The notes: generated by a model from the sequence alone, not told the origin. A stretch of 64,000 bases of DNA from Mactra antiquata (GCA_047288015.1 CM103819.1:32561354-32625353), one strand, 5' to 3'. Shown: positions 1-52,615, numbered from the stretch's first letter. Translations and numbers: made by a program.

Positions 1-13
1 ATATTATAATTAC

Positions 14-205
14 CTGAAGTGTTAGTGACAACACTATGACAACAAAGAGAAGATCAAAGTAATTATTGTCATTTGAATTTAGTAATGCCTTTAACTGTGA
101 AACATTTGCCATTAACAATGCTACGTCCATCATTTGATGTATAAAATTTCTTTTACCAACATATACATTTTGACCTGACAATTCTGGTGTGGCTTTGAGA
201 GTTCC
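14..205 (-). CDS. Ninjurin-like protein, copy 1, internal exon (..GTLKATPELSGQNVYVGKRNFIHQMMDVALLMANVSQLKALLNSNDNNYFDLLFVVIVLSLTLQ). Acceptor tcttatcag|GG near 205, donor CAG|gtaatt near 14. The last exon lies beyond the window start.
   Basis: Minus-strand reading gives the ninjurin signature 'MMDVALLMANVSQLKA' and the start of a hydrophobic helix. It is paralogous to 9877-10056 and 15924-16388. Splice sites were read directly from the sequence. The exon is 192 nt, phase 0-0. Confidence 0.6.
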
Positions 206-702
206 CTGATAAGAATATAAGACAATTTTAAATTAAAAATAACAATATGAATATGCTAGTGGGTTTTTTGTCTAAGATTTGAAGTACATGTTCTGTTCTT
301 TGCTAAAAATATTAATATATAAATATGCGCAATTACTTCATTTCAATGCTATTTTAACATTTTAGCTGTGACATTCAAATATATGGACAATTATAACGGG
401 TTTTATTTTTCGTTTATGCAGCATTACATAACTTAGTCCCCGTTTATGCTGTTTCGTGTACAGTTGACCAATCACTTTTAAATCTGCTGTGCTTTCCCTA
501 CTTTAAAAAGTCTTTTTTGCACAGGGAAACAACCAGGTGGTTTCTGGATGCGTTTTGAACCAATGTCCAACTGTCAGTTTAATCAGCAGTTCCACTAATT
601 AATCATATAACTACTCACTAAATTTATGTAAGGTATAAATTTTACATGATAAAGGTACAATTATAGTTTTATAAAATTAAGCAGTTATGATATAGATCCT
701 AC

Positions 703-828
703 CTGTATTGGATAACCAGGCCCATCTATTTCATCAAAGCCCTTCTCACCACTCTCCACATCAATAAAACTATCCCTCTCCTTCTCCGGTAAATCACATT
801 TTTCTTGAATGTTATCATTTGGCGCCAT
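703..828 (-). CDS. Ninjurin-like protein, copy 1, first coding exon (MAPNDNIQEKCDLPEKERDSFIDVESGEKGFDEIDGPGYPIQ). Donor CAG|gtagga at about 703.
   Basis: ATG at 826-828 on the minus strand with an aaataATGg context. The exon is phase 0 and acidic at the N-terminus. Its position and phase mirror the first exons of copies 2 and 3. Confidence 0.5.
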
Positions 829-2727
829 TATTTGTCCAGAAAGCTCGTCGATTTTAGAAACTGAGTCGCGCATTAGATTAAAACAGCGCCCTACGAAATG
901 CCGAATTCGGAAGAGCAAGACCTCTGGGATTGACGTGTATCTGTATTTGAAAATGTATTCTAAGGAGCGCAAACCAGAGATGAAGAAAGCATTGCAATCA
1001 CACGTGTTTATATTCATCTGGCTATGGATTTTCCAAATTCCACTGAAATCAAGCGTTTCAGTGAACACGATGAGAGATGGGGAATACCGTAGAGTACTTT
1101 CACTTACTAAAACCACTTCTAAATATGTATTTTATGAATTACCGTACGTATGTTGATAATTAAGTACAATTGTCAAGTGTATTATAATTAATTATGTCAC
1201 GTGAACCAAAACACTTAAGTACGTACAAATTTTAAACTTATAAAGTACCAAGAAAAAGAAACGCGCTATGTTCTCGCTCAATTTGATATCTCGTATATAC
1301 ACATTCAACGATAGCAGCAACTACTTCTTCGGGTCGCTTCTATGACCATTCAGATTCTTGTATTTGAGACTGTCAACTTGTCGCATTCGTTCCTTATGGG
1401 GCTCTAGTTTGGTACAAATGTACAAAATATGACACAAACTCCGGTTTCCAATTGTAAGTTAGCGCTGAAATTGGGATAGGGAACAGGTGGTGTCAGCGTT
1501 AATCTGGCTTCCATCTGATGTGAACCATTCGAGGTTTATTGTTCTTTATCTGGTCCTTCCAGCGTACTAATAGCATTTTGTTTTTTGCGTTCGAATTTGT
1601 CAATCATTCAGCATTTACATCTTACGGCAAAAATGATAGTAACTTGTATGCCAAAAGCAGAAAACATTCATAAACTAGTCAACTATTTAATACTATGAAT
1701 TTCAAAAAAGCTGTAAATTATGTGGAATGTTGTTTATCTTCTAGAACATATTTTCATTAAATCTGTGTTAAGTCTTCATATTTTCTGCGACAAAGTCACG
1801 AAATGAATGTCAGTTGATTTATGTCGTTATACTTTTGTAAAATGGTTTACAGATTTGTCTCAATTGATTTCTTACTAAAAATTAATATAAACTCAAGCCC
1901 GTAGAAACGGGGGGCAGATATTTAGCCTGTCCACCTCCTCCCAATAATTTTGACTGATAGTGATTTTAAGAACAGTTAGGAGTTACGTTAGCCTGCTTTA
2001 GACTGCTGTGACCTAAACAATGTGTTACTAAGGCATTAACAACAAAAAACAAAAAACGACCCCCACCATAATTAGCCCCCTACTAAATTAGCCCGCCCAA
2101 TCTGAAAATGCTTCCTACGGGCCTGAAACTAGATAATCAAGTCTAGAGATACTCTTATGAAAGACTTGTTACAAAATATCTTACGATAAAAATCTTCGTA
2201 AGTTTAATTTTGGTAAGATGTTCAGAAGATATAAAATATTCTGTGTAATTTAAGCCTACGAGATGTTTTTTTTTTTCGTTTTTTGTCCCATGTAACACAA
2301 ATAAATAAATTCCGCGAACTTTCCAATCACCCCTCCTATTTGTAATTTACAGAACAAACCATTGAACACTTAACGAATGTTTTCTGCTTTTGACCTACGA
2401 CTATTTTTTTCGTAAGATTTTTTGTGAGAGGGTCACGGCAATCTCCTGTCGGTGTACTAGCTTGTAACAACTTTAATTTACATAATGGTTGCGGTGACTT
2501 TTTCTCTACGTATACTATACTTGTGTTTTTGTCGTCTGGTTGTCGATCAAAGTATCGTCGTAATGGACTGTCGGCTTTTTTCATTCAGTCAAAGTTTTAT
2601 TGTTGATGTTGCAAAATACTACTTTCCTAATTAGGAAAAGATAGAAAACCCAGGCCAAGAAATCAGGTTAACAAAATTGGACCTTCGTATATAAATTTCA
2701 TCGAATTTATTGTTTCAAAAGTGACTT

Positions 2728-2860
2728 ACTCACCCACCCACCGACCGACCGGTCGACCGACTGACAGAACGACTGACTGCTAACTGACTCACTGATTGAC
2801 CGATCGACTGACGGACGGACGGACGGACAAACCGACCGACTGACTGGCACAGACATGCAA
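2728..2860. repeat. Compound tetranucleotide microsatellite (GACC/GACT/GACG/GGAC)n
   Basis: Run of 'ccaccgaccgaccggtcgaccgactgaca...gacggacggacggacggacaaaccgaccgactgactgg'. Confidence 0.9.
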
Positions 2861-4671
2861 GTATCGAAAAATAGTATGTATTGATTCGAGGCACTAATTA
2901 ATCATATGCTAAACAAAAATATACACATGCAATATTTATTATATTACGAGTTCATGTATTGTTATTATTATCACTTTAGCGTCTTAATATTTTTCTACTT
3001 TAGTGGAATAATTAACTAAGTGAATAATATCTAAATACAATGTTGACTGCTATTCAAAAATGATGACTTTAACATAAGATTTTTAAAATGCATACTTAAA
3101 GACAATGATGGTATGAATGATGCTACATTGCTGTATTTTAACAAGATGTATTTTATATCGCATTTCTTCATAAAATACCCACATGCCCAAATAAGGTAAA
3201 ACTCATGAATTATAAAAAAAATGAGGTATTCTTTTCCTAATCGTCAAGATTATGTTCCAAAATTATGTTCCAAGCTTATGTACCGTACGTTACCAATCTT
3301 TTCACTCAGCGGTTCTGTTTTCACTGACAATATATGATTCGCGATGATTTGTTACATTGGTTTGGAAAGTATAGCCAATATATACGAATCATTGCGGTCT
3401 TCAAACTCCAATTGTTACAATGGACAACTGCTTAGACCTGGCCATACACCGACAGATGGACCAAAGATACCAAGAGGGTATTTCGCAATTGGAGCAAGAA
3501 AATATTCTATCATGCACTCTTGCAATCAATGTGATTTTTACCCAATTCCAGGAAAAATGTTCCTAATATCGTCAGGAAGCTACTTACATTGTATAAAACA
3601 TTAGATACATTACATGTGTATATAGTATAAATGTATTTCCAAGAAAAAATGGTGTATCAATGTACTATTACTGGTTTTATTCATGTAGCAATCAACATAC
3701 ATGTATGTACATGGCTGGCTATTGTGAATTATAACCATGGCATGTACAATATCCATGCACACTTTGTAGATATACATTAATTTTGTGTTCCATGAAACGA
3801 CTACGTAACTGTTATATCTCTTGGAATTATTTATAACCATGCTCAATACAAACTAAACTTGAAAATAGTACTTTGCATACACGATAAACATGTGTAGTTT
3901 GTTTGATAGGTCATGCATGTGTGTGTACATCCAAAATCAGAGTGCCCAGTAAAGAGGAAATTTTAGTGTGTAAAACGAATTTAGTGTCCCCCTAATAACA
4001 GGCTGATTCTTCATACCATGTTATAGAACAGGTTTTCTTTAAATGAACGCTTTTAATATCGGCCTATTATTATGAACTATAAAGCGCGACCAAAGGTGAT
4101 AGTCTCATCCGGGAATTTACTGTTTGCGACTATCGAAAGTGGTCGCACTTTACACAACTTGCACTTTTGATTTATTTGTTTGCTTCTTTTAATATTATAA
4201 TTGTTCCTTGAACACTCGAACTTACTAACTCGGAAATTAGAGTCAGTTGGTATTAACTTGTACATAATTGAAATCCAGAAGTTGAGACATAATTATACTG
4301 ACATCCGTGTTGCGTTTATCTTGATAAAAGATCAACGTTCATTGGCTAGACATATACCAGGCTGATAAAAGCTCAAAGCGCATTGGTCAAAATATCCTTA
4401 TAAGAGGAAGTTATGTGTCCGTAATGTGTGCTGTGTGTGTTTAGAGGTCAAGTGTCATTGACATAATGTAAAAAACAACATACGTTTAAGAGGTTCAATT
4501 TACTTGAACATTGAACGTAATTATTATTCATGAAAAAATGTTATTTCTTTTACAGGCAAGAATATGGTGCCAGTTTGTACACTTGTTGACGTAGATCAGT
4601 TTTAACTGCCTCAGAAGTACAGTATAGTTAGGATCGCTGACATCAAATTATTTTAACCTATCTATATTTTC

Positions 4672-4985
4672 TTTTTTTTTGTTTTGGTTTAACGCCATAG
4701 CAACACATTGTATAGGTCATATCACGGCGGTCAGTCAACCTACTCACCGTTCCTGGAAAGGCTAAATCTCTGGATTTAGCTGTTAACCAGTTACTAGGCG
4801 CATACTTCCGTCAGTGACTGAAAACTGCCCTACATGATTTAGAATCAGTGGTAGGAGGGAGAATGGCCGTAGAAATAATTTCATGACCAAGCGCCACGAA
4901 AGTATGCCCCGCCCAGGGATCGAACCCACGACCCCTCGATCAGTAGACTTGCGCGCTACCGACTGAGCTAGCCGGGCGGGTCTGT
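4672..4985 (-). mobile_element. tRNA-derived SINE, subfamily A. The tRNA-like head is at the 4905-4985 end and the A-rich tail is at about 4672.
   Basis: The head is the reverse complement of 'gacccgcccggctagctcagtcggtagcgcgcaagtctactgatcgaggggtcgtgggttcgatccctgggcgg'. The body is shared with copies at 37036-37312 and 44516-44836. Flanking 10-bp target-site duplication 'taacctRtct'. Confidence 0.8.
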
Positions 4986-5513
4986 AACCTGTCTCAGATA
5001 GAGGGGATCGTGAGTTAGAGTCCAGCTACGATACATTTTTGTCCATGTGATAAAGTAAGCAAGTGAATATGAAGAATGTTAGTTAAGCACTGGTGCTGAC
5101 AGAATCGATGTTTAGGAGAGAGAACAGTCTGCCTCATATGACTCTCATGCCCATGTCATCAAATTTCTTACGACCGATTTTCGTCGTAAATCCTGTCGTA
5201 TCATATTACCATGTTATCGTAAGATTTTTATACCATGACCCCAAATTATTGAAAAGGGCTGAGATACAAGACAGTTACGTGTATTATTATGTGCTGTACA
5301 AATAAGCACGTGTATAGCCCCTGCTGTGTTATAACGGACTTAAGTAATGTGAAAAGTAATTTATATTGTTCAAAGCTAATTCTCAATATTGCTTTAGAAA
5401 GTAATATCTGTTTAGTTAAGCATCAGATTCAATTTTGATTCGTATCCATGTTGGTTGAATATTGATATTGATTGTATAACACTGGGCGGGGCGAGTATAT
5501 AATATATGTTATT

Positions 5514-5640
5514 AAATAAGTGATTTGATAAGGCCCTGTTATTTTTCGAGGGTAGTTGTATTGGCCCAAGGCCGAAGGCCGAGGGCTAATACGACTGTCC
5601 CGAGGAAAAATAACAGGGCCTGTATCAAATCACTTATTTA
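5514..5640. repeat. Long inverted repeat or hairpin, with arms of about 40 bp and a loop of about 45 bp
   Basis: 'ttaaataagtgatttgataaggccctgttatttttcgaggg' pairs with 'cccgaggaaaaataacagggcctgtatcaaatcacttatttaa'. Confidence 0.85.
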
Positions 5641-5699
5641 ATGACAAGTTTATTAAATAACTACTTACTGAACATCAACAAACGCGTCAAGTTCAATAA

Positions 5700-6600
5700 A
5701 AATCACCAGCGAACCTGGCGTTCCTTTTATATCTGTTTTGTTTTTCTACACGTTGTGACGAAATAATATAGGCTAAAAACGACTATGCCAAGAACGTACC
5801 GCTATGTACGAGACTCCACTATGTTAAAGATAATTACTGCTACCGGTCTCTTGAGAAAATAATTAATTGTAAATTGAGCTTGAACGCATTCAAAAACAAA
5901 ATGGCCGTCACTTTTAGCAATATTCATAACTGATATTGGTCCTGTTTTATCAACCAATCAGAGCGCAGATATTTGTTATTGGACCGGGGCCAATAAGTGT
6001 TATTGGCCCTATAACAGATTTCGGCCTTGTTTTCAGTTTTATTAAGCACGTTTTCCAGTATTGTGGAGTGAATTTGCCACTTTACAGGGCAAATAACACG
6101 TAGTTATTTAATAAGGCTTGTTAAAAATCAGTTTTCTTCTCAAACTGTATTTTTGATGACCTTTTACGTCATGTTCCTTTTACGTCTGTTTTTGCACCGT
6201 TTTTTTTCTACAAGTTATGATGAAATAATACAGGTTAAAAAAGACTCATGCCAGGAACGTACTGTTATGTACGAGACTCCACTATGTCAAAGATAATGAC
6301 TGCTACCGTTCTCCTGAGAGAATAATTAATTGTAAATTGGGTTTGAACGCGTACATGTACAAAATAAAATGGCCGTCATTTTTAGCGATAATCATAACTG
6401 ATATCGGCCCTGTTTTATCAATTAATCAGAACGCAGAAATTTGATATTGAACCGGAGCCAATAAGTGTTATTGGCCCTATAACAGATTTCGGCCCTGTTT
6501 TCAGTTTTATTAAGCAGGTTTTGCAGTACTGTGCAGTGAATTGGCCACGCTACAGGGCAAATAACACATAGTTATTTAATAATAGGTGTTCCAAATACGG
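5700..6600. repeat. Tandem duplication, 2 copies of about 470 bp each (5700-6130 and 6170-6600)
   Basis: Both copies contain '...ggccgtcacttttagcaatattcataactgatattggtcctgttttatcaaccaatcagagcgcag...gggcaaataacacgtagttatttaataa' with scattered substitutions. Confidence 0.85.
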
Positions 6601-7865
6601 TTCCTGATTTACAAAAAATTCAATTGGAAAAGTAACTGAGTTTTGAGCAAAGAGTTCGTTCTCAAGTTCTGTAACTACCGGTTCTGAGTGATTTCTATGT
6701 GAAACACGACAGTTCATAATATAAACGTACTTGTCTTTATCTAGCCATGAATGTCAATTGAGACTTCAAACCAAAAATAACAGTTTTCACAATAATGATA
6801 TATGCAAGAATCAAGATGTATAATATAATGATGGGTCGACTGTTTTCATACTGATTAGTTCTTGTTGTTGCTGCTTATATGATTATACATTCCGTATGTG
6901 TATGTAGATGTATGTATATGTATTGCGCAACGGTCCGGATTTTACTAATGCTTGTAAAAGTAGTCGCCCCTTGATGTAAAATACTATGTAAATGATTTGA
7001 CCATCGGTATTCTAGTAATTTCGCTTTCGGACTAGAATACTAAATGCTGGTCAAATTAAAAGTTTTATTTATATGGTGCTCATATGTAATTTATATTTTT
7101 CACCATTTGTCACATGTATGTATATGTTGACCGCGTGGGTCTATGACCTTCCGGTTTAAATTAAAATAAACTTTGAAACTTATGATTAATTAATATTGTC
7201 ATACAACTGGGGGTATATAAGTTGTATAGAAAATACATCGGGAGGTCAGTAAGAGAAGTCAGTAAGAAAGGGGGTCAGTCCGGAAGGCCAATCCAACATG
7301 ACACTTTGATGAGAGAGCTCTTGGGGTTCAGGTCGGGACTTCAGGGCCTAGACCTCAGCTGGAATGTGGCGTATAGTTGGTTAACTTACATGTTGTTAGA
7401 ACACTAAACACACAAAAACAAACTTTTTGAAAACATTTTATCTTCAAAAATTACAATATTTGCAAGTAGATAAAATAAAATAAAGCACCAAATATATAAC
7501 GTAAACATAACATAACAAAACATAGAAAAATGTAACAATTCAATGTGTGGTCGTGGTCAATCTCCGTAAACAGATATCCCATAGACCGCTGTCATAGGTA
7601 AAAAAAAGCGAGTAAGTGAGCGGAGATTTTAGATCGGGTTTTAATCAGGATGGGTCGTGGTAGACACATTTGTGACGTGATTTGATTGAGAATAGAACAT
7701 GCATCCCAAGCAAGTTTTCTGTGACTTGAATTGTCTTAGTATCGTTATATCCACATAGTGTCATCTAATCAAAATAAACATTGCTGTTATAGACAATGTA
7801 TAACACCGAATGACGAGCAAGTTCTATACACAGTCTAGCACTTCACCTATGCGTGTATTTGTCGA

Positions 7866-8180
7866 GTCCGCCCAGCTAGCTCACTCGGTAGCACGTCTGC
7901 CTACCGATTCAGGGGCCATGGGTTCGATTCCCGAACGAAACCTACATACATGTACCTTCGTGGAGTCTGGACATGCAATGCTGTCCATGGTTATTATCCC
8001 TTCTACCTCTGTTTTAAGCAGTGCAGTTGTCGGCCGCTGGCGAAGGTATATGCTTAGAATTGGTTAAAAGCTTGGGTCCAGAGATTTAAGCTTCTGCATT
8101 GGACAGTGAGTAGATCGACTAACCGCCACGATATGACTTAAAATTTGTCAAAAAGCAGCTTAAAGCGCCATAAATTACCA
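7866..8180 (+). mobile_element. tRNA-derived SINE, subfamily B
   Basis: Head 'gtccgcccagctagctcactcggtagcacgtctgcctaccgattcaggggccatgggttcgattcccg', then the shared body '..gccgctggcgaaggtatatgcttag..ggttaaaagcttgggtccagagatttaagc..', then the tail '..aaatttgtcaaaaagc..'. Confidence 0.8.
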
Positions 8181-8815
8181 AATTACTGAATGTATTTTTT
8201 AATTCGTCGGCTTGACACGCAACGAAACTGTAGGTCTCTTTCACAAAGCTTACGATAAAAATCATCTTAGTAGGTCCATTTGATATATTTGTTTCCAAAG
8301 GTCCGCAGATTGGTAGAAATGTTTTTTTTGGTACCATATTCAATATGTCAACTATACTCTACATACATGCAATTTAGGACATTCAGCATATGACTGCACA
8401 CATATATAATAGAAATGTATATAGTAAATAGATATGTATATAATTATGATACTATATCAGAAACAATATTCATATATTTTATATAAATGATTGGGAACAA
8501 TATTACAGTGAATGTTTCGTGACTATACACGATTTTGAGTGAAATAATTATAAAAAGGGTGTGGTATAATGTTAAAGTCAGAAAGGTATGTTCTAGTTCA
8601 CCTGGTGTTATCTAGATTCGCAAAATTGTCGACTATGTTTTGGAAACTTGATATCCACTGGTGGAAGAAAGTGTTAATGTGGTATTGGCCAAAGAGACAC
8701 AAAGTTAATTCAAATGAATTTCTTGTATTTTGCATTATAACCAGAAAAATGCAGCAGAATACTTAACACGCTTGTACATATTCAGCTCATTGTTGCGGTT
8801 GGAAAATTTTTCTTC

Positions 8816-9094
8816 TTATGAAGGAACTTCTGTAGCACTGTTAGTGGATAGTGTCTGTCCTGTTCCACTTACAGAAGATGCACTCTGGCCTCCTTCAACC
8901 CCGAAGCCCGTGATAAACACATTTGAAACAATTATAAATAAAACCAAAACATTTCCAAGACGATCAAGTAGTTTAGCAAAATATTTCTTCCTTTCAATGG
9001 CTGGACTTTCTTTTTTTAATAAATCATTGTCGTTTTCATCTTCTATCGTTTTCTCAAAGGCATAAATTGCTAACATACACATTGTGAAGATAAC
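8816..9094 (-). CDS. Ninjurin-like protein, copy 2, last exon (VIFTMCMLAIYAFEKTIEDENDNDLLKKESPAIERKKYFAKLLDRLGNVLVLFIIVSNVFITGFGVEGGQSASSVSGTGQTLSTNSATEVPS*)
   Basis: Acceptor ttttcag|GTTATC at about 9094. The C-terminal 'NVFITGFGVE' resembles ninjurin 'NIFITAFGVQ'. A possible alternative donor lies after ..GQSASS (tct|gtaagt). Confidence 0.6.
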   Translation of the reverse strand, partial: VIFTMCMLAIYAFEKTIEDENDNDLLKKESPAIERKKYFAKLLDRLGNVLVLFIIVSNVFITGFGVEGGQSASSVSGTGQTLSTNSATEVPS

Positions 9095-9876
9095 CTGAAA
9101 ATTACATTTTGAGAGAAGTGGCATATAATAAGACTAGAGTAGCATGAGTTGAAGATTGCATATAATCTTTTTCTTTATTGTAGCGTTTGTATGTTGATTA
9201 AGGTTTTAATTGTCGACCACGGCTATTTCAGTTGCAGTGGTACTTCGCTGGTCTGATTCATACGCAATATGAATGGAGAACATGTCGATCGCTTGATTAA
9301 AATTTACAAGTTCATTCAATTTTTTGAGAACTTTTTAGAATGCACCTGGCTTAAACAAGTAATCGTCCTCCTTTTGAACACGTATTTGCACTTCGTTTTT
9401 ACATTAATTTAAACGGCATCTTGTATGCTTCATAAGCATGTCTTACATTGGAAAATGTCTTAGGGTAGAATCCTCTTGGTCCCCTACTAAGATAAAAACA
9501 AACGTGAAGAATAAGGAGGCTTCTACCTAAACAAACTTTCTAACTAGCATGCACAGCCTGGTATCACGTACGTAATGTTTTTTTGTTTTGTATCTCTATT
9601 CACATGTAATATGTGCTGATTGTATCTACTTACAAAAAGACACAATGAGATATTACCGTTGAATCGTGATTACTAAATTCATTCTGTAATTTGGACTCGG
9701 TCCCATTGACCTTGGTCATTACAAACTAAGGGTTTTCTGTTAACTGCCAGAATGACGGTGCTTCTAACTCAGACGAAAAACTGCATTTCTTTCACTCATT
9801 AAGCATAGACTTATAGGCACCAAAAAGTACTAAAACATCAAGACGTGTGTGAATTTTAGACAAATACAATACAAAC

Positions 9877-10056
9877 CTGTAGAGATATGGACAATATTAT
9901 GAAAGTCAGCAGTATATAGAAATATTCATTATCCTTAGATACTAAAAGAGCTTTAAGTTGTGAGACATTGGCCATCATCAAAGCTACGTCCATCATTTGA
10001 TGTATGAAATTTCTTTTACCAACATAAGCGTTTGGTGTTCCACCAGATACAATATT
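9877..10056 (-). CDS. Ninjurin-like protein, copy 2, exon 2 (NIVSGGTPNAYVGKRNFIHQMMDVALMMANVSQLKALLVSKDNEYFYILLTFIILSISLQ)
   Basis: Acceptor ttttatactag|AATATT, donor CAG|gtttgt. The exon is 180 nt, phase 0. It carries the ninjurin motif 'DVALMMANVSQLK'. Confidence 0.65.
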
Positions 10057-10305
10057 CTAGTATAAAATAAAGTTCAATTATAGTGAAATTTGTATCACTC
10101 ACGGGGCTGTGAAACCTCATAGAAATCATCGTAAGTCAAAAGCAGAAAGCATTCATGAAATGTTGTTATTTTTTGGCCTATCCATTTCAAATGAACTTAA
10201 TGACGCAGATTGTTGTATACCTTCTGAATATAATAACGGTAACAGTCGACTGTTTGCCGCTACCATAAGCTACCATTGGCTAACAGGTTTACACAGTAGT
10301 TAATT

Positions 10306-10865
10306 CATTCGGAACTCCCCGGCCATTCACTACGAATAACCTCGGATATATTTAGACACCATGTCGTAACTACTTTCGTGTCACGTGACAAAACATGAAC
10401 GGCACAATTAAAATTTAAAATCTTCTCATATCAAGTTGGTAAAACCCATACCACGCCGTTCTTGTTGAATACAGTCATCGGGGCTTCTCACATACCATTT
10501 AGAATGTCTTAAATGCAAAGTTATCTCTTGCTAGGGACAGACACAATTCAAAACTTGCCATTGTGATAATGGAAGGGCCGTGTTTTGATTTTATCCGGTG
10601 TCGAAGTAAACAAATCCATGATCATGTAGGCGATGACAGATGTCCTGATTTAAGTCTATAGATTTAAAGCACATGACTCATTGAGATCGCTAACCATTGT
10701 TGAGACACATAATATAACAGAAAAATATTATTATGCTAAACCTTGTGTGTTTTCGACAAGAACTATTTAATACAAATTGTTGTGTGGTTCGCCTCGCGTA
10801 TGCAGCAAAAACCCACGAATCCTTCCGAGATTATTATTCAATGAATGGTTGAGGTGTTCCGAATG
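10306..10865. mobile_element. MITE-like non-autonomous DNA element with 'CATTCGGAAC' termini and a 9-bp target-site duplication (TAGTTAATT). It lies in the intron of ninjurin-like copy 2.
   Basis: Imperfect terminal inverted repeats of about 40 bp: 'cattcggaactccccggccattcactacgaataacctcgga' pairs with the reverse complement of '...tccgagattattattcaatgaatggttgaggtgttccgaatg'. The sequence 'tagttaatt' directly flanks both ends. The other copies (13342-13827, 42530-43026, 62109-62690) are in inverted orientation relative to this one. Confidence 0.8.
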
Positions 10866-11561
10866 TAGTTAATTAACCATTCAGTTAAACCTTATACGTC
10901 GTTAACGGTAGCATCTTCCACTGAGGTGCTAACGTTAGATACCGGCAGCTGTAGCTGAGCTTATCCTAGTGTTAATTTTCGGGGATTTTGCAATTTGTTT
11001 GAGACGGCATTCTGATTTTTGTAGCTCTGGCGCCATATGTATATAATGGCCAATGTTGTCAACCTCGATCATTCAATGCACACTAACGTCGATTTGTCTA
11101 AGATATCATCACTGACTATATTGTAAACCATATATAAGTGTACTCCTTAAAGTTGATGTTGTGCTCATTAGCATAAACGACAATATTCAATTACCACTGT
11201 TTAAGTAGTGAGTTAATTGATAGATAATAATGGTTCAAATCCATCCACAGGGCACCATGAGGAAGAAACTTAATCCTAAGTCCTTAATACAGGTTGACCT
11301 GCAAGTAAACTCAGTTAAGATGACCATATAACTTGTGATATTTTTTCACAGTCGAGCTGAATTACTTTATATAAAAAGAAAAAGAACATAGAATAAATTA
11401 CCTGCCTTTGTTGTTATAATAGCATTATAACAAACAGTAATCAGCATGATAAAAATATTCTATTACATTATTATTCCCAAGATTACACGAACCTGTATTT
11501 TTTCATTTCAAAGGGAGATAACTATTCCATACATAGACGATATAAATCATGCATTACGTAC

Positions 11562-11678
11562 CTTTATACCAGCTTCGGGTTCATCTTGTCCTAATTTATC
11601 ATCATTATCATGTATATAATCTATCTCTATATCATCAGTTGTATGTTGTATATGTGTGTCTTCTCTGATTGATGCCAT
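11562..11678 (-). CDS. Ninjurin-like protein, copy 2, first coding exon (MASIREDTHIQHTTDDIEIDYIHDNDDKLGQDEPEAGIK). Donor AAG|gtacgt.
   Basis: ATG at 11676-11678 on the minus strand with A at -3 and G at +4. The exon is phase 0 and compatible with exon 2 at 9877-10056. It parallels the first exons of copy 1 and copy 3. Confidence 0.5.
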
Positions 11679-11829
11679 GCTATCATATCCACTAACTAAA
11701 TATTATGTATGAAAAATAACCCATAGTTATGTACAGTGGACAATAAACAAACGGTTACATGTATGTATACACTAACACATTGGAGCTTTTTAATTGGGGG
11801 AAGACTGGGCTTGACCAGCTGAGTTGTAT

Positions 11830-11990
11830 CATCAAATGAAGTTATAATGATACATGTAATAATAATAATAATGATAATTATAATAATAATAGTAATAGTA
11901 TTAATAATAACAATACAATGTAATAATAATATTTAGATTATTATTATTTATTATTACAATTATTATTATCATTACACTTCCAAACAATAT
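11830..11990. repeat. AAT/ATT-rich microsatellite with an internal palindrome
   Basis: 'aataataataataatgataattataataataatagtaat...attattattatttattattacaattattattatcatt'. Confidence 0.9.
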
Positions 11991-12271
11991 CAACGTTAAA
12001 TTAGTCCTCTCTCGTGCATTTTACATTAATACAACCCTTTTTAAAACAGACATTTCTCTCTAATAGCCCATTTATAATATTTCTGTTATTGTCAACGATG
12101 TGTCTCACTGTGTTCTGGACAATTTCTCAAATTGTGATTGGATGCATAATTTTAAAAGTCGTAGGTCGTTAGTTAATTGATGTAATGTGACGGACAAATT
12201 GTTAGAAAGACGCTAAAACCGCTTTGTCTTACTTAACAAATACAACGAATAGTATAAATATACCATATTTA

Positions 12272-12560
12272 GTCCGCCCGGCTAGCCCAGTCGGTAGCGC
12301 GACTGCCTACCGATCAATGAATAGCTCGTTATAGATTCGTGGGCTGGGCCTACTTACTTGCATGGAGTTTAGTTATGGTTATTTTCTACCACCATTCGTA
12401 TGAAGTACATGTAGGTAGTTTTCAGCCACTGGCGAAAGTATGTGCTTAATACTGGTTAAAAGCTTGCGTCTAGAGATCTAAACCTCTTAGAGGACGATGA
12501 GTAGGTCGACTGACCGCCGAGATAAGACCGAAAAATTGTCGAAAAGCGGTGTAAAGCAAC
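12272..12560 (+). mobile_element. tRNA-derived SINE, subfamily B
   Basis: Head 'gtccgcccggctagcccagtcggtagcgcgactgcctaccgat..', body '..cactggcgaaagtatgtgcttaatactggttaaaagcttgcgtctagagatctaaacc..', tail 'gaaaaattgtcgaaaagcggtgtaaagc'. Confidence 0.8.
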
Positions 12561-13341
12561 ATACATTACATATTATTTTCTCATACATAATAATACCACA
12601 GACATTTTTATTTTTATTTTCTTTCCCACCTTTACAAGATATAATTGCTTTCATTTTATTGTGTGATTATAATAGCTGAATCTACCTAGAATTAGTCGTT
12701 CATTCAGATAAGATGATAAGTGACTGATAGCTACACACTAAGGACAATAATAAAAAGCGCTCATATCTAATGCATCACGCATAGTACATGGACAGTTTAA
12801 ATGAAAGACTGCGTACTCTGGCTAGTTATTTTTCAGAAATTTTATTTTGATTATAAAATAGCACTGGCGCTTAATACAGTATAATATAACTAAAATTAGA
12901 ACCAAAAGTTCAAAAACATTAACGCTATAGTATGCAATGATAAAAACATTGTTTCACATACCTTCACTCATTATTAATCCTAACAGAACCCTATTTAAAG
13001 AACGTGTTAGAAGAGTCCCAGAACATCAACTGATTCCTCTTGATTTCCATTCCACCATTTATACATGTATTCTCAAAAACAAACGCAGTTTAAATAAAAA
13101 CAAAAACCCTCTTGGACACTTCAGATGATGTCAGTTTTAAATATAAAGATCTTATAATGTCATGACCCAATTTCTATCACTAGATAAGGTATGAAATATA
13201 GTCTTAATTATATCAAGAGTATAAACAATTTTATCTTTTAAATAAATACCCCTAAATCATAGCAAGACATGCTTTCTCGTTGACGCAATGGAATGTTGTA
13301 TTCACAGGTGTCTGTGTCAAAATGAAATAAACCCGATGTCA

Positions 13342-13827
13342 CATTTGGAACTCCTCAGCGATTTTCTACGCAACTATGCCTCGGACATCAGAGGTAGTAG
13401 TAACACAACACGCTATAATGTCCGGCGAATGACTCCCAGGTACGTAATTAAGTGCCGCTAAGTCTATATTTACAAACAAGTTTACCGCTATTCTGCAAAC
13501 TAGCAACATCACAAACTTAATGAAGTCTAAGCCTTCCCGGCGCAAATGTCTAAGGATTATCAAAATAACATGAAACACGGCACGCTGTCATTTTCTTTAA
13601 ACACAACCAACCTACGCCGATTAACAATGTTAAACGCATTTTCAAAATATTTCATTAGCATTATCTCTCTCACATGTCTTGTTTCTGTGTAGTTTAGGCT
13701 ATATTGCCACAGAAGCCACATTTAAAATGACATTCACGTTTACTTCGGAATCCATGTCAGAGCGACTTTCTCTCCTTATGATGTCCGAGGTATATTTGCG
13801 TAGAAAATCGCCGGGGACTTCCGGATG
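13342..13827. mobile_element. MITE of the CATTCGGAAC family. The target-site duplication is CCGATGT(c/a)A.
   Basis: Termini 'catttggaactcctcagcgattttctacgcaa...' and '...ttgcgtagaaaatcgccggggacttccggatg'. The six-frame ORFs 13366-13578 and 13699-13977 lie inside it and are not genes. Confidence 0.7.
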
Positions 13828-15923
13828 CCGATGTAACTGCAATTTTACTTTTTTAACGTATTCACCGATTGTGCATATGACCGATTTTGCGTTAGGGATG
13901 CCTTCAAAATATTGATTAACAGTATGGACTATTATGGATACAGCAGGATACAGCAAACATCCGAATGTCAGATACATCTATCGAGCTTTTACGGGATTTT
14001 TCGATTTAAAGACTTGGTTCAAAGAACCACTATTTTAATTCCATCTTCAACGCTGATCATTCAAATTCTCTTATTCGTTCTTCTATTCTATAAGTATATA
14101 GATATAATACTGTTATTTGATGAATATTTGAGTGCTTGATACAGTGTCCTGTGATTGTATCGTTAATTTCCTATTCACTTCCTTGGCTGTATGGCATTTT
14201 TTTATTAGTTAACTACCACCCATTGCAGATAATTACTTATAGCATAAATTTCAAAAGCATGGTTTCCATTCTTAGTACAAACATTTTCAAAAAAAACAAC
14301 ATCAAACATGTAATAATTCGATAACACGTTATTTATGATATAAAAATCGAATGGTTGACCCTGAATGTATACAAGTACTGCAATACAAAAAACAATGACT
14401 AGAACAAAAGTGACAGTTAAATGAAAAAGTTAGTAACATACATAAATACTGTACTTTATACTTATAAATTACATACATGTATTTATCATGCAATTTAAGT
14501 CTTTACAAAGAGAAATTAGCAATGCGCATATTAATAACTTCTTATGACGTTATTGTGATGTCATAAGAAGTATGAAAAATATCAACATATAAATGCTTAT
14601 AATTTCCTTAATTAAGCATGCAAATTCAAAAATTCTTTCATTCCTGCGTTTCTCTTTTTTATGCACTAAAGGCGTGCCTGAATCACCCCTTTAATACGCA
14701 TATATATAAAATGACACACAGCATCTATCATGTACATTGAACTGTCATGTCCTTTAACATAAACATTGTTAATATACTTAAATAAATCAAATTAGTAAGC
14801 TTAATATTTTATATGTGACAATGATAAAAGCAAACACTATAAACTATATTGATATATACTAAGTATGGATGTCAGACCTGATATTTACCCAGAGCCTATA
14901 CCCTTGCAAACATAATAAACTAAAAACAGAAAACGATCGGCTAATTCTAATAAATAATGTCTTAAACATTCTCAGAGGTGGTACGATGTAACATGCACTG
15001 TCTACCAAAAGTAAGTAACACTGTCAATAAGTTACAGAGAGTCACATATTGAACAGTATATTTAATGAAATAAAATTTATCACAGTAATGAAAAGCTAAT
15101 GTTTTCAAAATTTGGGTTGCTTATAGATAAATCATTTATGAATGTAACACAATCTCATACATTTGACTTAGGAATCAAAGTTTAAAGAAATTCAAGACAA
15201 TTCTGGAAGGATCTAAATATTGTTAAACTTTACATTGATTCATACAGTGGGGCAATATTTGCGTAAATTTAAAGATGGCATTATGATCTGAAGCACTAGG
15301 AATGAATAAACAAGAGATTAAAATCAAGTTTCAATGTATTATATCATATTGAGAAATTAAATATTTCTTTAGAAATTCATCATGTATGATTACATCTCTA
15401 ACAATTCTATAAAACCATATGGCTTGCCTACATTAAATGACAGTGTATACTATCTGTTGGTGGGCAGTGTATATATATTATCTAACTAATTATTTACATG
15501 TACATGTATTTATATTCCTCAATACGATCGAACCAACATACTTGTACAAAAATGTTCAAATCTCAGTGATAATATATAAATGAAGAATATGTTCATGAAA
15601 CTAGCACAAATTTATGTACAATGCCATGTCCGTCTAGTATATATCTGGTACATAATGAATTTGGCTTCGTGATCGACCATTATGAAGGGGGCAGCTATAT
15701 CTAAGTTACAGAACTTGCCACGCATCCCGATGCCGTTTATACATATAGTTATTTCTTATTATTACTAATGTTATACAGTTTTGCTTGTAAATATGTACTA
15801 CGGATAATAAAATGTGTTTGAATTATTCACTACAACTAGATGTCCATACAAATATAATAAAAAAATGGCACTAAGTTCGCGCGGGTATTTTCACAAATGT
15901 AATGAAATCTGATGTACAGATAT

Positions 15924-16388
15924 TTAACACATTTTTACTTTGGTACCATTGCTCAGTACCATATATATTTCACCAGCTTGTTCAACACTATGTTTACTAT
16001 GTGATTCAACACCAAACCCTGTTATAAAAACATTAGATATAATTATCAATAAAACAAGAAAGTTCCCAACTCTATCAAGACGATCAGCGAGTATACGCCG
16101 TGATTCGTCCGGTGGTGGTAAGGAGGTCTGGGGCGATTGCTCCTCGTATTCTTCAAATTTTCGCTCTATTGACCATATGATAAGCATGCAAAGAGTGAAT
16201 ACCACTTGTAGAACTATGGAACCAACTATGAAGACAAGGAGAGGGAAGAAATATTTATCATGTGTGTCCATTGACAACAAAGACTTTAACTGAGATACAT
16301 TTGCCATCATTAAAGCCACGTCCATGAGTTGATGAATAAAGTTTCTTTTTCCAACATACATGTTTGCCACACCGTGTTCCTTCATGTC
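15924..16388 (-). CDS. Ninjurin-like protein, copy 3, terminal exon. In this copy the exon 2 and exon 3 sequence is contiguous (D-MKEHGVANMYVGKRNFIHQLMDVALMMANVSQLKSLLSMDTHDKYFFPLLVFIVGSIVLQVVFTLCMLIIWSIERKFEEYEEQSPQTSLPPPDESRRILADRLDRVGNFLVLLIIISNVFITGFGVE...).
   Basis: Acceptor ttactag|GACATG at 16388. The ORF is continuous across the position where copies 1 and 2 have an intron (..SLQ|V..). It carries the ninjurin motifs 'DVALMMANVSQLK' and 'NVFITGFGVE'. Confidence 0.65.
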   Translation of the reverse strand, partial: DMKEHGVANMYVGKRNFIHQLMDVALMMANVSQLKSLLSMDTHDKYFFPLLVFIVGSIVLQVVFTLCMLIIWSIERKFEEYEEQSPQTSLPPPDESRRILADRLDRVGNFLVLLIIISNVFITGFGVESHSKHSVEQAGEIYMVLSNGTKVKMC

Positions 16389-16924
16389 CTAGTAAATTAA
16401 GAACAATAGAAATAAGTCCAGAATATGTTAAGTTAGCTGAATGTATATTGCAGCCTCATTTTTATATAAAACTATTCATTTCATCTCATGTGTATGTACA
16501 AAGCTAAGGAAATATCTTAGTTTAAACTACCGCAATGGTAGTTTAAATTTATATATTTCCTTAGTTTTGTTTGAGTGTTTGTTGCAGCTTCGATACATAT
16601 CCTGTCATACGATGACCACAGCTTCATACCACCAGCTTCTTTGCCTGTGTTCAAACCAATACCAAAAGTGACCCTCAAAAGAAATCTGCAATTGCTCCAT
16701 ATGTCGAGTAAATTGGCATTTTTGGTCAAACTATCAAGGCAAAGTAATACATGTGAGAACGGGAATCAAACTATGATCGCCAGGAACCAGGGCCACGGTA
16801 ACCATTCTGTACAAGCTTTTTCCTGTGATTTATCAAGGAACGCAATAATTAACGGTACAGACAAAATTAGCGCAGGTTATTCTTCTGTAGGCTGTAATTA
16901 GTTTAGTTTATACAAATTTATTTC

Positions 16925-17125
16925 AGCTCGATTGTGAAAAAAGTTCTTACAACTTAGATTAATCACTCTCGAGCGCAGCCGAGTGGTTACGACGTTGGGC
17001 TGGTAATCATTGGATAGCCAGCTCCGCGTTGGTTCGAATCACATCTAAAACCCACCTCGTTGTTTCCTTGAGCAAGAAACTTTATCCTAATTGCTTAGTA
17101 CTGGGGGACCAGGAAGCGGACTCGA
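16925..17125. mobile_element. SINE family C, composite. A tail fragment in minus orientation at 16925-16968 abuts a plus-orientation head plus body at 16969-17125.
   Basis: '..caacttagattaatcactctcgagcgc' is followed by the tRNA-like segment 'agccgagtggttacgacgttgggctggtaatcattggatagccagctccgcgttggttcgaatcac..' and ends '..gcggactcgagagtg'. The copy at 34190-34400 is a full reverse-complement match. Confidence 0.6.
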
Positions 17126-17418
17126 GAGTGTAGGGATTAAAAACGGCTATATATATATATATATTACCAAGATTATGTTTGTTGGTATGTTCTACAGTAT
17201 TGATACAGTTAAGTCTTTCCATCTCAAATACACCACAGACTTTTTATGATAAGCAACAGCTCAGCATCCAGTCGTAAAACATCGGGTATTTCCGTATCCA
17301 CGGTGAAATACGAAGCATACTAGCCGATATGGTCAGATTGCTGAGCACCAGACATTGTTATAATAAAATCGAGACAGAAAGTGTATACAATTCCCTATTG
17401 TATATTAATACATACTAC

Positions 17419-17517
17419 CTTCAACCCTAGATCCACCTCATCAGTTCCAACATCAGTTTGCATCATATCATGATTGGTTAGTTCTAACTCACTCCCTGAT
17501 TGTTGATTTCTCGTCAT
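17419..17517 (-). CDS. Ninjurin-like protein, copy 3, first coding exon (MTRNQQSGSELELTNHDMMQTDVGTDEVDLGLK). Donor AAG|gtagta.
   Basis: ATG at 17515-17517 on the minus strand. The exon is phase 0 and splices in frame to 16388. Confidence 0.5.
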
Positions 17518-23917: not shown

Positions 23918-24493
23918 TCATTCAACACGATTAATGAACCTTTTTAAGGCATTAGGAATTGGAAGCTTTACAATGTCTGTTGATTTCCAGGCACATTGTT
24001 CCAATATTTGTAATCTACAGAGAGCCTTTAGAGTCTTTACCACAGAAGAGCTCATATTAAGTTCATCTTTACAATACTTGAAAGCTTTTCTTTGTAGAGT
24101 TAGTGTTGGCTTGCCATCATATTGGTACTTTAATGCCTCGTTCAATGACTGAACAGTCATGTTTTCAAGCAGTGTTTCAGTAATTTCATGAATGTAGTCA
24201 ATCAATATAGCTTCATCATACTTTTGTTGCTTCTCAAATGTTTCAGGATGATAAAGAATAGAGTTACAGAAAACATTAATAGGAAAAATTCCATTCTCAT
24301 TACAGTTTGGATCAGCACCATTTTGAATTAAAAGTCTAAAAGTTGTAATGCTACGTTCATCCAAACCAAGTGGAATAGAGATAGCAAGAAATGCATGCAG
24401 AGAATTACCAGAAATATTTTCATCTTCAATTGGTCCAAATATAGAGGGGTTTGCACCATGGCGTAATAATGTTTCCGTACATTTGGTCACAAA
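23918..24493 (-). CDS. Continuation of the same ASB-like reading frame after the TGA: more ankyrin repeats plus a C-terminal SOCS box (..LKALCRLQILEQCAWKSTDIVKLPIPNALKRFINRVE*)
   Basis: It is in the same frame as 24494-25570, separated only by the TGA and one codon (..DTNIR-TGA-FVTKCTETLLRHGANPS..). The SOCS-box consensus (L..LCR..I......LPLP..L..) matches. The 'M' in the ORF track here is a GTG codon. Confidence 0.6.
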   Translation of the reverse strand, partial: FVTKCTETLLRHGANPSIFGPIEDENISGNSLHAFLAISIPLGLDERSITTFRLLIQNGADPNCNENGIFPINVFCNSILYHPETFEKQQKYDEAILIDYIHEITETLLENMTVQSLNEALKYQYDGKPTLTLQRKAFKYCKDELNMSSSVVKTLKALCRLQILEQCAWKSTDIVKLPIPNALKRFINRVE

Positions 24494-40575: not shown

Positions 40576-41019
40576 GTAAGTTATCAGTCCTTCGACATAT
40601 AATTATATAAATATCATGCGTCTAATGACTGGTTTTATTTAACTAAATTATGGATTTTATGAAAATGAGTCATAATAAACTAAGTAAGCAAACTTTACTA
40701 TATGTACCGTAAAATACCGAATAATTCTAAGCGATAATAGTTTTTTATTTCAAGAAAATCGTCCTTCATTTAATGAAATCGTCGAATGTTTCCCAAAAAT
40801 AGCCTAAAATACGATGTATGTCAAACAACGCGTCCTCTAAATGATAAGGAACAATGGTCTTTAGGGTCCGTTTCAGGCACCTGTGTTTTCAAACGCTGTG
40901 TTCGGACTACAAAGCTGCTTTTGAAATACTGTCACATTAAGATTTCTAAATGACATACATTGATTTCACTATTTGCGGAGCGTATTTATATACTTTTTAT
41001 GTCTATTCTTTTACACTAG

Positions 41020-52572: not shown

Positions 52573-52615
52573 TTTAGGTTTCACTCCAATAAAAGCAAAT
52601 GTTCTTGAAAGTTTT

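What the first reader, a model, noticed from the sequence alone, without database searches (positions are those of the whole stretch)
14..17517. Tandem triplication of ninjurin-like genes, with precise intron loss in one paralogue
Three minus-strand paralogues have exons at 14-828, at 8816-11678, and at 15924-17517. Each encodes an N-terminal acidic exon and then a ninjurin-type core. The core carries 'MMDVALMMANVSQLK', two transmembrane helices and a C-terminal 'NVFITGFGVE'; compare vertebrate NINJ1 'MLDIALLMANASQLKAV' and 'NIFITAFGVQKP'. Copy 3 lacks, precisely, the intron that splits '..SLQ|VIF..' in copies 1 and 2. Ninjurins mediate plasma-membrane rupture and cell adhesion. A local expansion with structural divergence suggests paralogue-specific roles, for example in immunity or cell death.
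Basis: partly seen in the sequence, partly recalled or inferred. Interest (0 to 1): 0.65.

Follow-up and report, generated by a model that had tools for sequence, protein, structure and literature searches.

The report
Clam ninjurin gene cluster, one gained intron
Three neighbouring genes of the clam Mactra antiquata encode ordinary, already annotated ninjurin membrane proteins, and the intron that two of them share was most likely gained by those two, not lost by the third.

Summary
Three head-to-tail ninjurin genes lie on the minus strand at 14-828, 8816-11678 and 15924-17517, with GT-AG, phase-0 introns. All three pass Pfam Ninjurin; copy 2, the one tested, matches solved NINJ1 and NINJ2. 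The window is Mactra (Coelomactra) antiquata, and GenBank already annotates all three genes.

Two corrections to the description:
- Copy 1 is cut by the window edge, so its last exon is not in the window.
- The array is old. dS is saturated, and copy 3 belongs to a different, conserved bivalve subfamily from copies 1 and 2.

The interpretation of a precise intron loss in copy 3 is most likely backwards. Ten other bivalve ninjurin genes read on genomic DNA have an undivided core exon. They come from Mya, Mercenaria (three genes), Dreissena, Potamilus and three unnamed samples, and include subfamily relatives of copy 2. Bird NINJ1 has its intron 10 codons further downstream. One intron gain at a CAG|GT site, before copies 1 and 2 duplicated, is the most parsimonious reading (about 0.8).

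The proteins keep the residues needed for NINJ1 filament formation. No function has been tested in molluscs. This is a new member of a known family with a modest evolutionary twist.

The parts
703..828 (-). Copy 1 (GenBank model P0016), acidic N-terminal coding exon MAPNDN...GYPIQ. The donor is CAG|gtagga.
   Evidence: The exon is identical to residues 64-105 of P0016. The annotated start further upstream (MNINTC...) is doubtful.
14..205 (-). Copy 1, exon 2: GTLKATPELSGQNVYVGKRNFIHQMMDVALLMANVSQLKALLNSNDNNYFDLLFVVIVLSLTLQ. It encodes the amphipathic helix and the first half of TM1. The acceptor is cttatcag| and the donor is CAG|gtaatt.
   Evidence: Pfam PF04923 scores 45.8 bits on the partial product.
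1..13 (-). First 13 nt of copy 1's second intron (gtaattataatat). The rest of the intron and the last exon lie outside the window.
   Evidence: P0016 continues VIFAIVM..., which is not encoded here.
11562..11678 (-). Copy 2 (GenBank model P0001), acidic N-terminal exon MASIRED...EAGIK.
12962..12971 (-). Ten-nucleotide leader exon (ATGAGTGAAG|gt) used by the GenBank model of copy 2. It is probably a 5' leader exon, and its coding status is uncertain.
   Evidence: compared with the N-terminus of P0001, MSEVSGYDS.
9877..10056 (-). Copy 2, exon 2: NIVSGGTPNAYVGKRNFIHQMMDVALMMANVSQLKALLVSKDNEYFYILLTFIILSISLQ.
9095..9876 (-). Copy 2, second intron: 782 bp, phase 0, gtttgt...ttttcag. It lies between the invariant Gln codon (CAG) and the Val codon (GTT). 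This is the intron inferred to be a lineage-specific gain.
   Evidence: One search gives the length and finds no other copy in the window. One search finds no terminal repeats or target-site duplication. One search shows the orthologous sites read CAA/CAG|GTN without interruption.
8816..9094 (-). Copy 2, exon 3: VIFTMCML...NVFITGFGVEGG...EVPS plus the stop codon. It encodes the rest of TM1, the loop, TM2 and the tail.
   Evidence: The 191-aa product scores 68.6 bits on Pfam over profile positions 2-102 of 102.
17419..17517 (-). Copy 3 (GenBank model P0015), acidic N-terminal exon MTRNQQ...DLGLK.
   Evidence: The GenBank model uses a donor 3 nt downstream, which adds one Val. Orthologues (GFK|D...) favour the 187-aa version.
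15924..16388 (-). Copy 3, a single core exon: DMKEHGVANMYVGKRNF...LQVVF...NVFITGFGVES...KVKMC plus the stop codon. This undivided core is the state shared by all other bivalve ninjurins examined.
   Evidence: Pfam scores 67.7 bits. Copy 3 groups with Mercenaria P0009 and Ruditapes P0010 at 84% bootstrap.

Best explanation
The region is part of an old, conserved tandem array of ninjurin genes in the bivalve Mactra (Coelomactra) antiquata. Ninjurins are small two-pass membrane proteins with an extracellular amphipathic helix.

Copy 3 is the Mactra orthologue of a 'type B' gene that is also present in Mercenaria and Ruditapes, and more distantly in Mya and Dreissena. Copies 1 and 2 are duplicates within the second subfamily, 'type A'. 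The ancestral bivalve gene had two coding exons: an acidic, disordered N-terminal exon and one core exon. Copy 3 keeps that structure.

In the Mactra type-A lineage, a new phase-0 spliceosomal intron was inserted without gain or loss of any codon. It entered at a CAG|GT proto-splice site, directly after the invariant Gln of TM1 (equivalent to human NINJ1 Q91). The gene then duplicated to give copies 1 and 2, which both carry the intron.

All three genes are under purifying selection. They keep the residues that human NINJ1 needs to polymerise (K44, K45 as Arg, D53, Q91). Their inferred biochemical activity is therefore ninjurin-like membrane oligomerisation, in membrane rupture and/or adhesion. 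That last step is inference, not shown.
For: Identity.
- Pfam Ninjurin scores are well above the cut-off for all three copies.
- Copy 2 aligns to solved NINJ2 and NINJ1 across helices alpha1 to alpha4.
- The AlphaFold model has a disordered N-terminus and helices at 60-86, 94-134 and 140-173.
- The GenBank proteins 'Ninjurin 1', 'tissue reproteinration' and 'Ninjurin 1' [Mactra antiquata] lie on one 47.8-Mb contig, and P0001 is 100% identical to my copy 2 model.
- The genome paper describes gene models combined from de novo, homology-based and RNA-seq-based prediction (PMC11897284).

Age and orthology.
- Copy 3 groups with Mercenaria P0009 and Ruditapes P0010 at 84% bootstrap, and with Mya_c and Dreissena_b at 76%.
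- Copies 1 and 2 share a one-residue deletion (NE-YF versus DKYF) with type-A genes. They share the motif AFEK..ED with each other and with P0017. They come out as sisters in the second neighbour-joining (NJ) tree.
- dS is 1.8 or more or undefined for all pairs, and dN/dS is about 0.1.
- Mercenaria has type B, a divergent ninjurin and type A within 50 kb on CM038762.1.

Intron polarity.
- Ten other bivalve ninjurin genes on genomic DNA have an uninterrupted core exon across the LQ|V site.
- Five or six of them are type A by the deletion character: Mya_a, Merc_a, Dreis_a, P0017 and P0032, plus the P0019-like copy on L008, which was not itself in the alignment (P0019 was).
- One is a unionid outgroup, and one is a deeply divergent paralogue.
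- Bird NINJ1 has no intron there. Its intron lies 10 codons downstream.
- No codons are gained or lost at the junction.
- Orthologous sites read CAA/CAG|GTN, which is a proto-splice site.

Function.
- D71 and Q108 of P0001 are invariant across 36 sequences including vertebrates, and K62 is nearly invariant.
- By the alignment these correspond to human D53, Q91 and K44. K45Q, D53A and Q91A abolish NINJ1-driven lysis (PMC10307626).
Against: - The NJ support for copies 1 and 2 as sisters is only 38%, and the first tree placed copy 1 on a long basal branch. No maximum-likelihood tree program was available.
- Only one non-bivalve outgroup gene structure was examined. No other mollusc class, no pteriomorph bivalve and no other mactrid could be sampled. 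An ancient intron that survives only in this lineage is therefore not excluded.
- Intron loss is generally more frequent than gain in animals.
- The second intron of copy 1 cannot be compared with that of copy 2, because only 13 nt of it are in the window.
- No mechanism signature for the gain was found: there is no transposon copy, terminal repeat or clear target duplication. The CAGGTT found at both junctions of copy 2's intron is largely forced by the splice consensus.
- The splice junctions rest on sequence and on the GenBank models. I did not see RNA-seq reads.
- Foldseek against the PDB gave no significant match.
Confidence: 0.8

Rival explanations
1. The Q|V intron is ancestral, and copy 3 lost it precisely, for example by recombination with a reverse-transcribed partial cDNA, which preferentially removes 3' introns.
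For: - The absence in copy 3 is codon-exact, as RT-mediated loss would give.
- The missing intron is the 3'-most one, while the 5' intron is kept in all copies.
- Intron loss is commoner than gain in metazoans (general knowledge).
- Support for the position of copies 1 and 2 in the tree is weak.
Against: - The same intron-less core occurs in all ten other bivalve ninjurin genes examined. These include type-A relatives of copy 2, a unionid gene and a deeply divergent paralogue.
- Bird NINJ1 has no intron at this site.
- Retention would need roughly five or more independent precise losses, against one gain.
- Copy 3's own orthologue in Mercenaria already lacks the intron. Any loss would therefore not be specific to copy 3 or to Mactra.
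Confidence: 0.13
2. Copies 1 and 2 acquired their introns independently at the same proto-splice site, or one acquired it and passed it to the other by gene conversion. In that case the intron does not mark their common ancestry.
For: - CAG|GT proto-splice sites are preferred targets for intron gain, and the site reads CAG|GT in several orthologues.
- The two copies are only 8 kb apart, so conversion is physically plausible.
- Bootstrap support for copies 1 and 2 as sisters is low.
Against: - A single gain before the duplication needs fewer events.
- Copies 1 and 2 are each other's closest relatives by identity (63% in the core) and share the AFEK..ED motif.
- dS of 1.8 argues against recent conversion of the adjacent exon.
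Confidence: 0.04
3. One or more copies are non-functional relics or mis-assembled models. The apparent intron would then be an insertion that disrupted a decaying gene.
For: - Copy 1 is the most divergent: it sits on a long branch, has GVG instead of GVE, and has a longer loop.
- The GenBank models have doubtful N-termini, namely a 63-aa extension on copy 1 and a 10-nt leader exon on copy 2.
Against: - All reading frames are intact and all splice sites are canonical.
- dN/dS is about 0.1.
- The invariant family residues are kept in all three copies.
- According to the genome paper, gene models supported by only one prediction approach were removed (PMC11897284).
Confidence: 0.03

Closest known systems
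Vertebrate ninjurin-1 (NINJ1), executioner of plasma-membrane rupture; solved structures 8cqr, 8uip, 8sza, 9bia
   Same: - It belongs to the same Pfam family, and copy 2 aligns over human residues about 38-142.
- It has the same layout: a disordered N-terminus, an amphipathic helix and two transmembrane helices.
- The counterparts of K44, D53 and Q91 are conserved, and K45 is replaced by Arg.
   Different: - Identity is only about 25-30%.
- The clam proteins have an acidic N-terminal exon, a much longer charged loop between the two transmembrane helices, and a C-terminal tail.
- Other residues tested in human NINJ1 are not conserved: by my reading of the alignment, E49 corresponds to His and G95 to Thr.
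- The gene structure differs. Bird NINJ1 has three coding exons, with the last intron after ..LLIFL, 10 codons downstream of the Mactra copy 1/2 intron.
- Rupture activity has not been tested in any mollusc.
Vertebrate ninjurin-2 (NINJ2; 8szb)
   Same: It is the best PDB sequence match to copy 2 (E 1.1e-10), and it has the same helices.
   Different: NINJ1 and NINJ2 are a vertebrate duplication. The bivalve types A and B arose independently within bivalves, so neither clam type is an orthologue of NINJ1 or NINJ2, despite the GenBank names.
Bivalve ninjurin arrays: Mercenaria LOC123552326 (P0009), ninjurin-2-like (P0002) and LOC128545965 (P0161); Potamilus CHS0354_017710-017713; Mya and Dreissena ninjurin-1-like
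   Same: - They have the same two subfamilies and the same acidic first exon.
- The first intron is at the same place (..GFK|D..).
- They are clustered on one chromosome or contig.
- Copy 3 is 76.5% identical in the core to Mercenaria P0009 and shares its C-terminal NGTKVK motif.
   Different: None of these genes has the Q|V intron that Mactra copies 1 and 2 carry. The divergent ninjurin that lies inside the Mercenaria cluster has no counterpart in this window.
Documented spliceosomal intron gains at proto-splice sites (MAG|GT), for example those described in Daphnia and in introner-bearing lineages (from my own knowledge, not checked here)
   Same: The insertion is codon-exact and phase 0 at CAG|GT, and the flanking coding sequence is unaltered.
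   Different: No repeated introner family, transposon termini or informative flanking direct repeat could be shown. The event is old, so any mechanism signature may have been erased.

Membership tests
Ninjurin (Pfam PF04923) | A significant match to the family profile over its full length, above the curated cut-off. | tested here: met
   Copy 2 scores 68.6 bits and copy 3 scores 67.7 bits, both over profile positions 2-102 of 102. Partial copy 1 scores 45.8 bits over positions 2-54. The cut-off is 26 bits.
Ninjurin (Pfam PF04923) | Sequence homology to experimentally solved NINJ1 and NINJ2 across helices alpha1 to alpha4. | tested here: met
   Hits are 8szb (NINJ2) at E 1.1e-10 and 9bia, 8uip, 8cqr and 8sza (NINJ1) at E 8e-10 to 6e-08. 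The alignments run from the N.Y..K motif to FIT.FG.
Ninjurin (Pfam PF04923) | Architecture: a disordered N-terminus, an amphipathic helix, then two hydrophobic helices. | tested here: met
   In the AlphaFold2 model of P0001, residues 1-59 have low confidence and are not helical. Helices span 60-86, 94-134 and 140-173, with core pLDDT about 76-88. The overall model is moderate (mean pLDDT 65). I read hydrophobicity from the sequence and did not run a transmembrane predictor.
Ninjurin (Pfam PF04923) | A three-dimensional match to solved ninjurin structures. | tested here: inconclusive
   Foldseek against the PDB gave no match with E <= 0.001. Simple helical hairpins and the filament conformation of the solved chains make this test weak.
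NINJ1-type membrane-rupture executioner | Conservation of the filament-interface residues whose mutation abolishes lysis (K45, D53, Q91; PMC10307626). | tested here: met
   The D53 and Q91 equivalents (D71 and Q108 of P0001) are invariant in 36 sequences. The K44 equivalent is nearly invariant. K45 is Arg, a conservative change. Other tested positions, such as G95, are not conserved.
NINJ1-type membrane-rupture executioner | Oligomerisation and release of LDH or DAMPs on activation. | not testable with these tools
   This needs cell-based or liposome assays. No mollusc ninjurin function was found in the literature searches.
Precise intron loss (RT-mediated) in copy 3 | The intron is present at the homologous position in outgroups and orthologues, that is, in the ancestral state. 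| tested here: not met
   The intron is absent from ten other bivalve genes. Bird NINJ1 has its intron 10 codons away.
Lineage-specific spliceosomal intron gain | The intron is restricted to one clade nested among intron-lacking relatives, with a codon-exact insertion at a proto-splice site. | tested here: met
   The intron occurs only in Mactra copies 1 and 2. The site reads CAG|GT. There is no indel in the protein alignment. Nesting rests on a shared deletion character and a weakly supported NJ tree.
Transposon- or introner-derived intron | Terminal repeats, a target-site duplication, or multiple related copies in the genome. | tested here: not met
   There is no second copy in the 64-kb window and no terminal inverted or direct repeats. 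The whole genome could not be searched, so this is a weak negative.

The most novel reading that the evidence does not exclude
Copies 1 and 2 record a genuine spliceosomal intron gain in a metazoan. It can be dated: it happened after the Mactra lineage split from the venerid, myid and dreissenid clams and before a local gene duplication. The intron sits exactly behind the invariant, functionally essential Gln of the first transmembrane helix. Sampling other mactrids could bracket the event and perhaps reveal the source of the intron. Separately, the conserved A/B ninjurin array of bivalves could represent subfunctionalised membrane-rupture or adhesion effectors in an invertebrate.
Probability: 0.75. 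Interest if true: 0.4.

Novelty: new member of a known kind. Interest (0 to 1): 0.3.

Why it matters
The ninjurin genes themselves are ordinary. The family is well known, and these genes are already annotated in GenBank.

Two points have modest value. First, well-polarised intron gains in animals are uncommon. This one has a clear comparative frame: ten intron-less relatives, a proto-splice site, and a duplication after the gain. That makes it a usable case for studying how and when introns arise in molluscs. Second, bivalves keep an old tandem array of two ninjurin subfamilies that retain the residues NINJ1 needs to rupture membranes. That offers a starting point for asking whether regulated membrane rupture exists outside vertebrates. 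Neither point changes current understanding.

Tried and rejected
- Locating the Mactra genes in the assembly index, to read the sequence upstream of the window (copy 1's last exon, a possible fourth copy). P0001 and P0016 were not on record, so this stays untested. The homologue search returned only three Mactra antiquata ninjurins.
- A homologue search with the divergent Mercenaria ninjurin, to reach non-bivalve molluscs. It found only itself and one Logan contig, so no other mollusc outgroup was obtained.
- Foldseek of the AlphaFold model against the PDB gave no significant hit and was uninformative for this small helical fold.
- A search for a transposon origin of copy 2's second intron was negative: no other copy in the window, no terminal repeats, and no Rfam family or tRNA-like element. 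The CAGGTT at both intron junctions was considered as a target duplication. I rejected it as evidence, because four of the six bases are forced by the GT/AG rule and the codons.
- Flanking-gene synteny with the Mercenaria, Mya, Dreissena and Potamilus loci showed only the ninjurin exons matching within the 10-kb flanks.
- No maximum-likelihood tree program was installed. I used NJ with bootstrap instead. The first bootstrap run timed out.
- Literature searches for ninjurin in bivalves or for ninjurin gene structure returned only incidental mentions.
- A fourth ninjurin copy, or an orthologue of the Mercenaria divergent gene, inside the window: none was found.

Full report
**What is in the sequence**

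The window is AT-rich (about 35% GC) eukaryotic DNA. On the minus strand between 14 and 17517 there are three ninjurin-like genes in the same orientation. I fixed their exons by reading the splice sites and checking that the joined frames translate.

| Copy | Exon 1 | Exon 2 | Exon 3 | Product |
|---|---|---|---|---|
| 1 | 828-703 | 205-14 | outside the window | partial; 106 aa encoded here |
| 2 | 11678-11562 | 10056-9877 | 9094-8816 | 191 aa |
| 3 | 17517-17419 | 16388-15924 | none | 187 aa |

Every intron is GT-AG and phase 0. After copy 1's exon 2 there is a gtaatt donor, and the window ends 13 nt later. tblastn with the three products finds no further copy anywhere in the 64 kb.

**Family identity**

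All three products match Pfam PF04923 (Ninjurin) far above the curated cut-off. Copy 2 aligns to the solved human and mouse NINJ2 and NINJ1 chains, from the N.Y..K motif to FIT.FG. An AlphaFold2 model built on 36 homologues shows a disordered N-terminus and three helices, at 60-86, 94-134 and 140-173. That is the ninjurin layout of an amphipathic helix followed by two membrane helices. Foldseek against the PDB was uninformative.

**Source organism and existing annotation**

The homologue search identifies the source. A GenBank protein named 'Ninjurin 1 [Mactra antiquata]' is 100% identical to my copy 2 model. Two more proteins from the same 47.8-Mb contig correspond to copy 3 ('tissue reproteinration') and copy 1 ('Ninjurin 1'). 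The genome is published. Its models combine de novo, homology-based and RNA-seq-based prediction, and models supported by only one approach were removed (PMC11897284). The genes themselves are therefore already known and annotated.

**Corrections to the observation**

- Copy 1 is truncated by the window. Its last exon, and therefore its second transmembrane helix and C-terminal motif, are not in the window. The GenBank model gives NVFITGFGVG, not ..GVE, and about 209 aa counted from MAPND.
- The GenBank model of copy 2 adds a 10-nt leader exon at 12971-12962.
- The GenBank model of copy 3 uses a donor 3 nt further on, which adds one Val. Orthologues read GFK|D.., which favours the 187-aa version.
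- The first exons are indeed acidic.

**Age of the array**

Synonymous divergence is saturated for every pair. dS is 1.8 for copies 1 and 2, 3.8 for copies 2 and 3, and undefined for copies 1 and 3. dN/dS is about 0.1. These are old genes under purifying selection, not a recent triplication.

In neighbour-joining (NJ) trees, copy 3 groups with Mercenaria LOC123552326 and a Ruditapes gene at 84% bootstrap, and then with one gene each from Mya and Dreissena at 76%. It shares their SLLSMD..DKY, DESRRILAERLD and C-terminal NGTKVK motifs.

Copies 1 and 2 carry the one-residue deletion (NE-YF versus DKYF) that marks the other subfamily, here called type A. Type A includes Mercenaria a-c, Ruditapes a, Mya a/b and Dreissena a. 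Copies 1 and 2 also share AFEK..ED with each other. They come out as sisters in the better alignment, but with only 38% bootstrap.

Mercenaria has a type B gene, a divergent ninjurin and a type A gene within 50 kb of one chromosome. Potamilus has four consecutively numbered ninjurin genes on one contig. An unnamed ENA contig has two ninjurin genes 1.4 kb apart. Ninjurin arrays are thus a general and old bivalve feature.

**Direction of the intron change**

This is the part of the finding that matters. I mapped homologues onto their genomic loci. The core, from N.YVGKRNF to the stop codon, is one uninterrupted exon in each of the following genes:

- Mya P0003;
- Mercenaria P0002 (type A), P0009 (type B) and the divergent P0161;
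- Potamilus P0026, a unionid, which serves as an outgroup to the heterodont clams;
- Dreissena P0008 and the gene on ENA contig L006;
- both genes on ENA contig L008;
- the gene on Logan contig L009.

L008 and L009 show an acceptor site and non-coding sequence directly upstream of the core exon, so they are genomic DNA and not cDNA. L006 is a 6.6-Mb assembled contig.

A vertebrate NINJ1 (Parus/Pseudopodoces) has three coding exons. Its last intron falls after ..LLIFL|VKYD, 10 codons downstream of the Mactra site, and there is no intron at LQ|V.

At the nucleotide level the orthologous sites read CAA or CAG followed by GTN. This is a proto-splice site. The protein alignment shows no inserted or deleted residue at the junction.

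One gain in the Mactra type-A lineage, before the duplication that produced copies 1 and 2, explains everything with a single event. Retention of an ancestral intron would need roughly five or more independent, codon-exact losses.

The main weaknesses are these:

- Support for the tree is low.
- Outgroup sampling is limited to a single non-bivalve gene structure, with no other mollusc class and no second mactrid.
- The two second introns could not be compared, because copy 1's lies almost entirely outside the window.
- I found no signature of how the intron arose. There is no second copy in the window, no terminal repeats and no RNA family.

**Function**

D71 and Q108 of the GenBank copy 2 protein are invariant across 36 bivalve and vertebrate sequences, and K62 is nearly invariant. 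By the PDB alignment these correspond to human NINJ1 D53, Q91 and K44, and K45 is replaced by Arg.

In human and mouse NINJ1, the K45-D53 salt bridge is the most prominent filament contact. K45Q, D53A and Q91A abolish lysis (PMC10307626). The new intron sits immediately after the codon for this invariant Gln.

Ninjurin-like oligomerisation in the membrane is therefore a reasonable inference for all three clam proteins. Whether any of them ruptures membranes, mediates adhesion or acts in immunity is untested. I found no functional work on mollusc ninjurins. The acidic N-terminal exon, the long charged inter-helix loop and the C-terminal tails differ between the subfamilies. These regions are the obvious candidates for paralogue-specific behaviour.

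**Verdict**

The family assignment is correct and already in GenBank. The array is ancient, not a local novelty. The structural difference is best explained as an intron gain shared by copies 1 and 2, not as a loss in copy 3. Interest is modest: the case is useful for intron evolution and a pointer towards invertebrate ninjurin biology, but it is not surprising to a specialist.

Noticed in passing
window 51691-55813 (+): Four consecutive intact ORFs: a 293-aa gag-like ORF with no Pfam hit, reverse transcriptase plus an RNase H-like domain (PF00078, PF13456), a tyrosine recombinase (PF00589, weak) and a GDSL/SGNH hydrolase (PF13472, E 4e-11). This is the gene set of a DIRS/Ngaro-type tyrosine-recombinase retrotransposon, and it appears to be full-length.
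   Followed up: partly
window 23918-25570 (-): An ankyrin-repeat ORF (358 aa) is followed directly by a SOCS-box ORF (190 aa). The two are separated by a single in-frame stop at 24491-24493. It is an ASB-like gene, and the stop may mark a short intron, a pseudogene or a sequencing error.
   Followed up: partly
window about 10306-10865 (inside copy 2's first intron) and 62109-62690: A repeat of about 585 bp, 83% identical between the two sites, whose ends match each other in inverted orientation. It is MITE-like, and shorter fragments occur elsewhere in the window.
   Followed up: no
window 12962-12971 (-): The GenBank model of copy 2 begins with a 10-nt coding exon (ATGAGTGAAG|gt) 1.3 kb upstream of the main ATG. 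It is probably a 5' leader exon whose ATG happens to be in frame.
   Followed up: partly
window 829-1017 (-): The GenBank model of copy 1 starts at an upstream in-frame ATG and adds 63 residues (MNINTCDC...). These residues resemble no other ninjurin N-terminus, so the start codon is probably mis-annotated and MAPND at 828 is the likelier start.
   Followed up: partly
L003 19405-20688 (Mercenaria CM038762.1, about 83.634 Mb): A strongly divergent ninjurin paralogue (LOC128545965, about 30% identical to types A and B) sits inside the Mercenaria ninjurin cluster. It has no counterpart in the Mactra window and only one relative in the protein database.
   Followed up: partly
window 40973-42328 (+) and 48007-48834 (-): Long ORFs of 451 and 275 aa with low-complexity, acidic or Ser-rich composition and no Pfam match. 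They may be exons of unannotated genes or chance ORFs.
   Followed up: no
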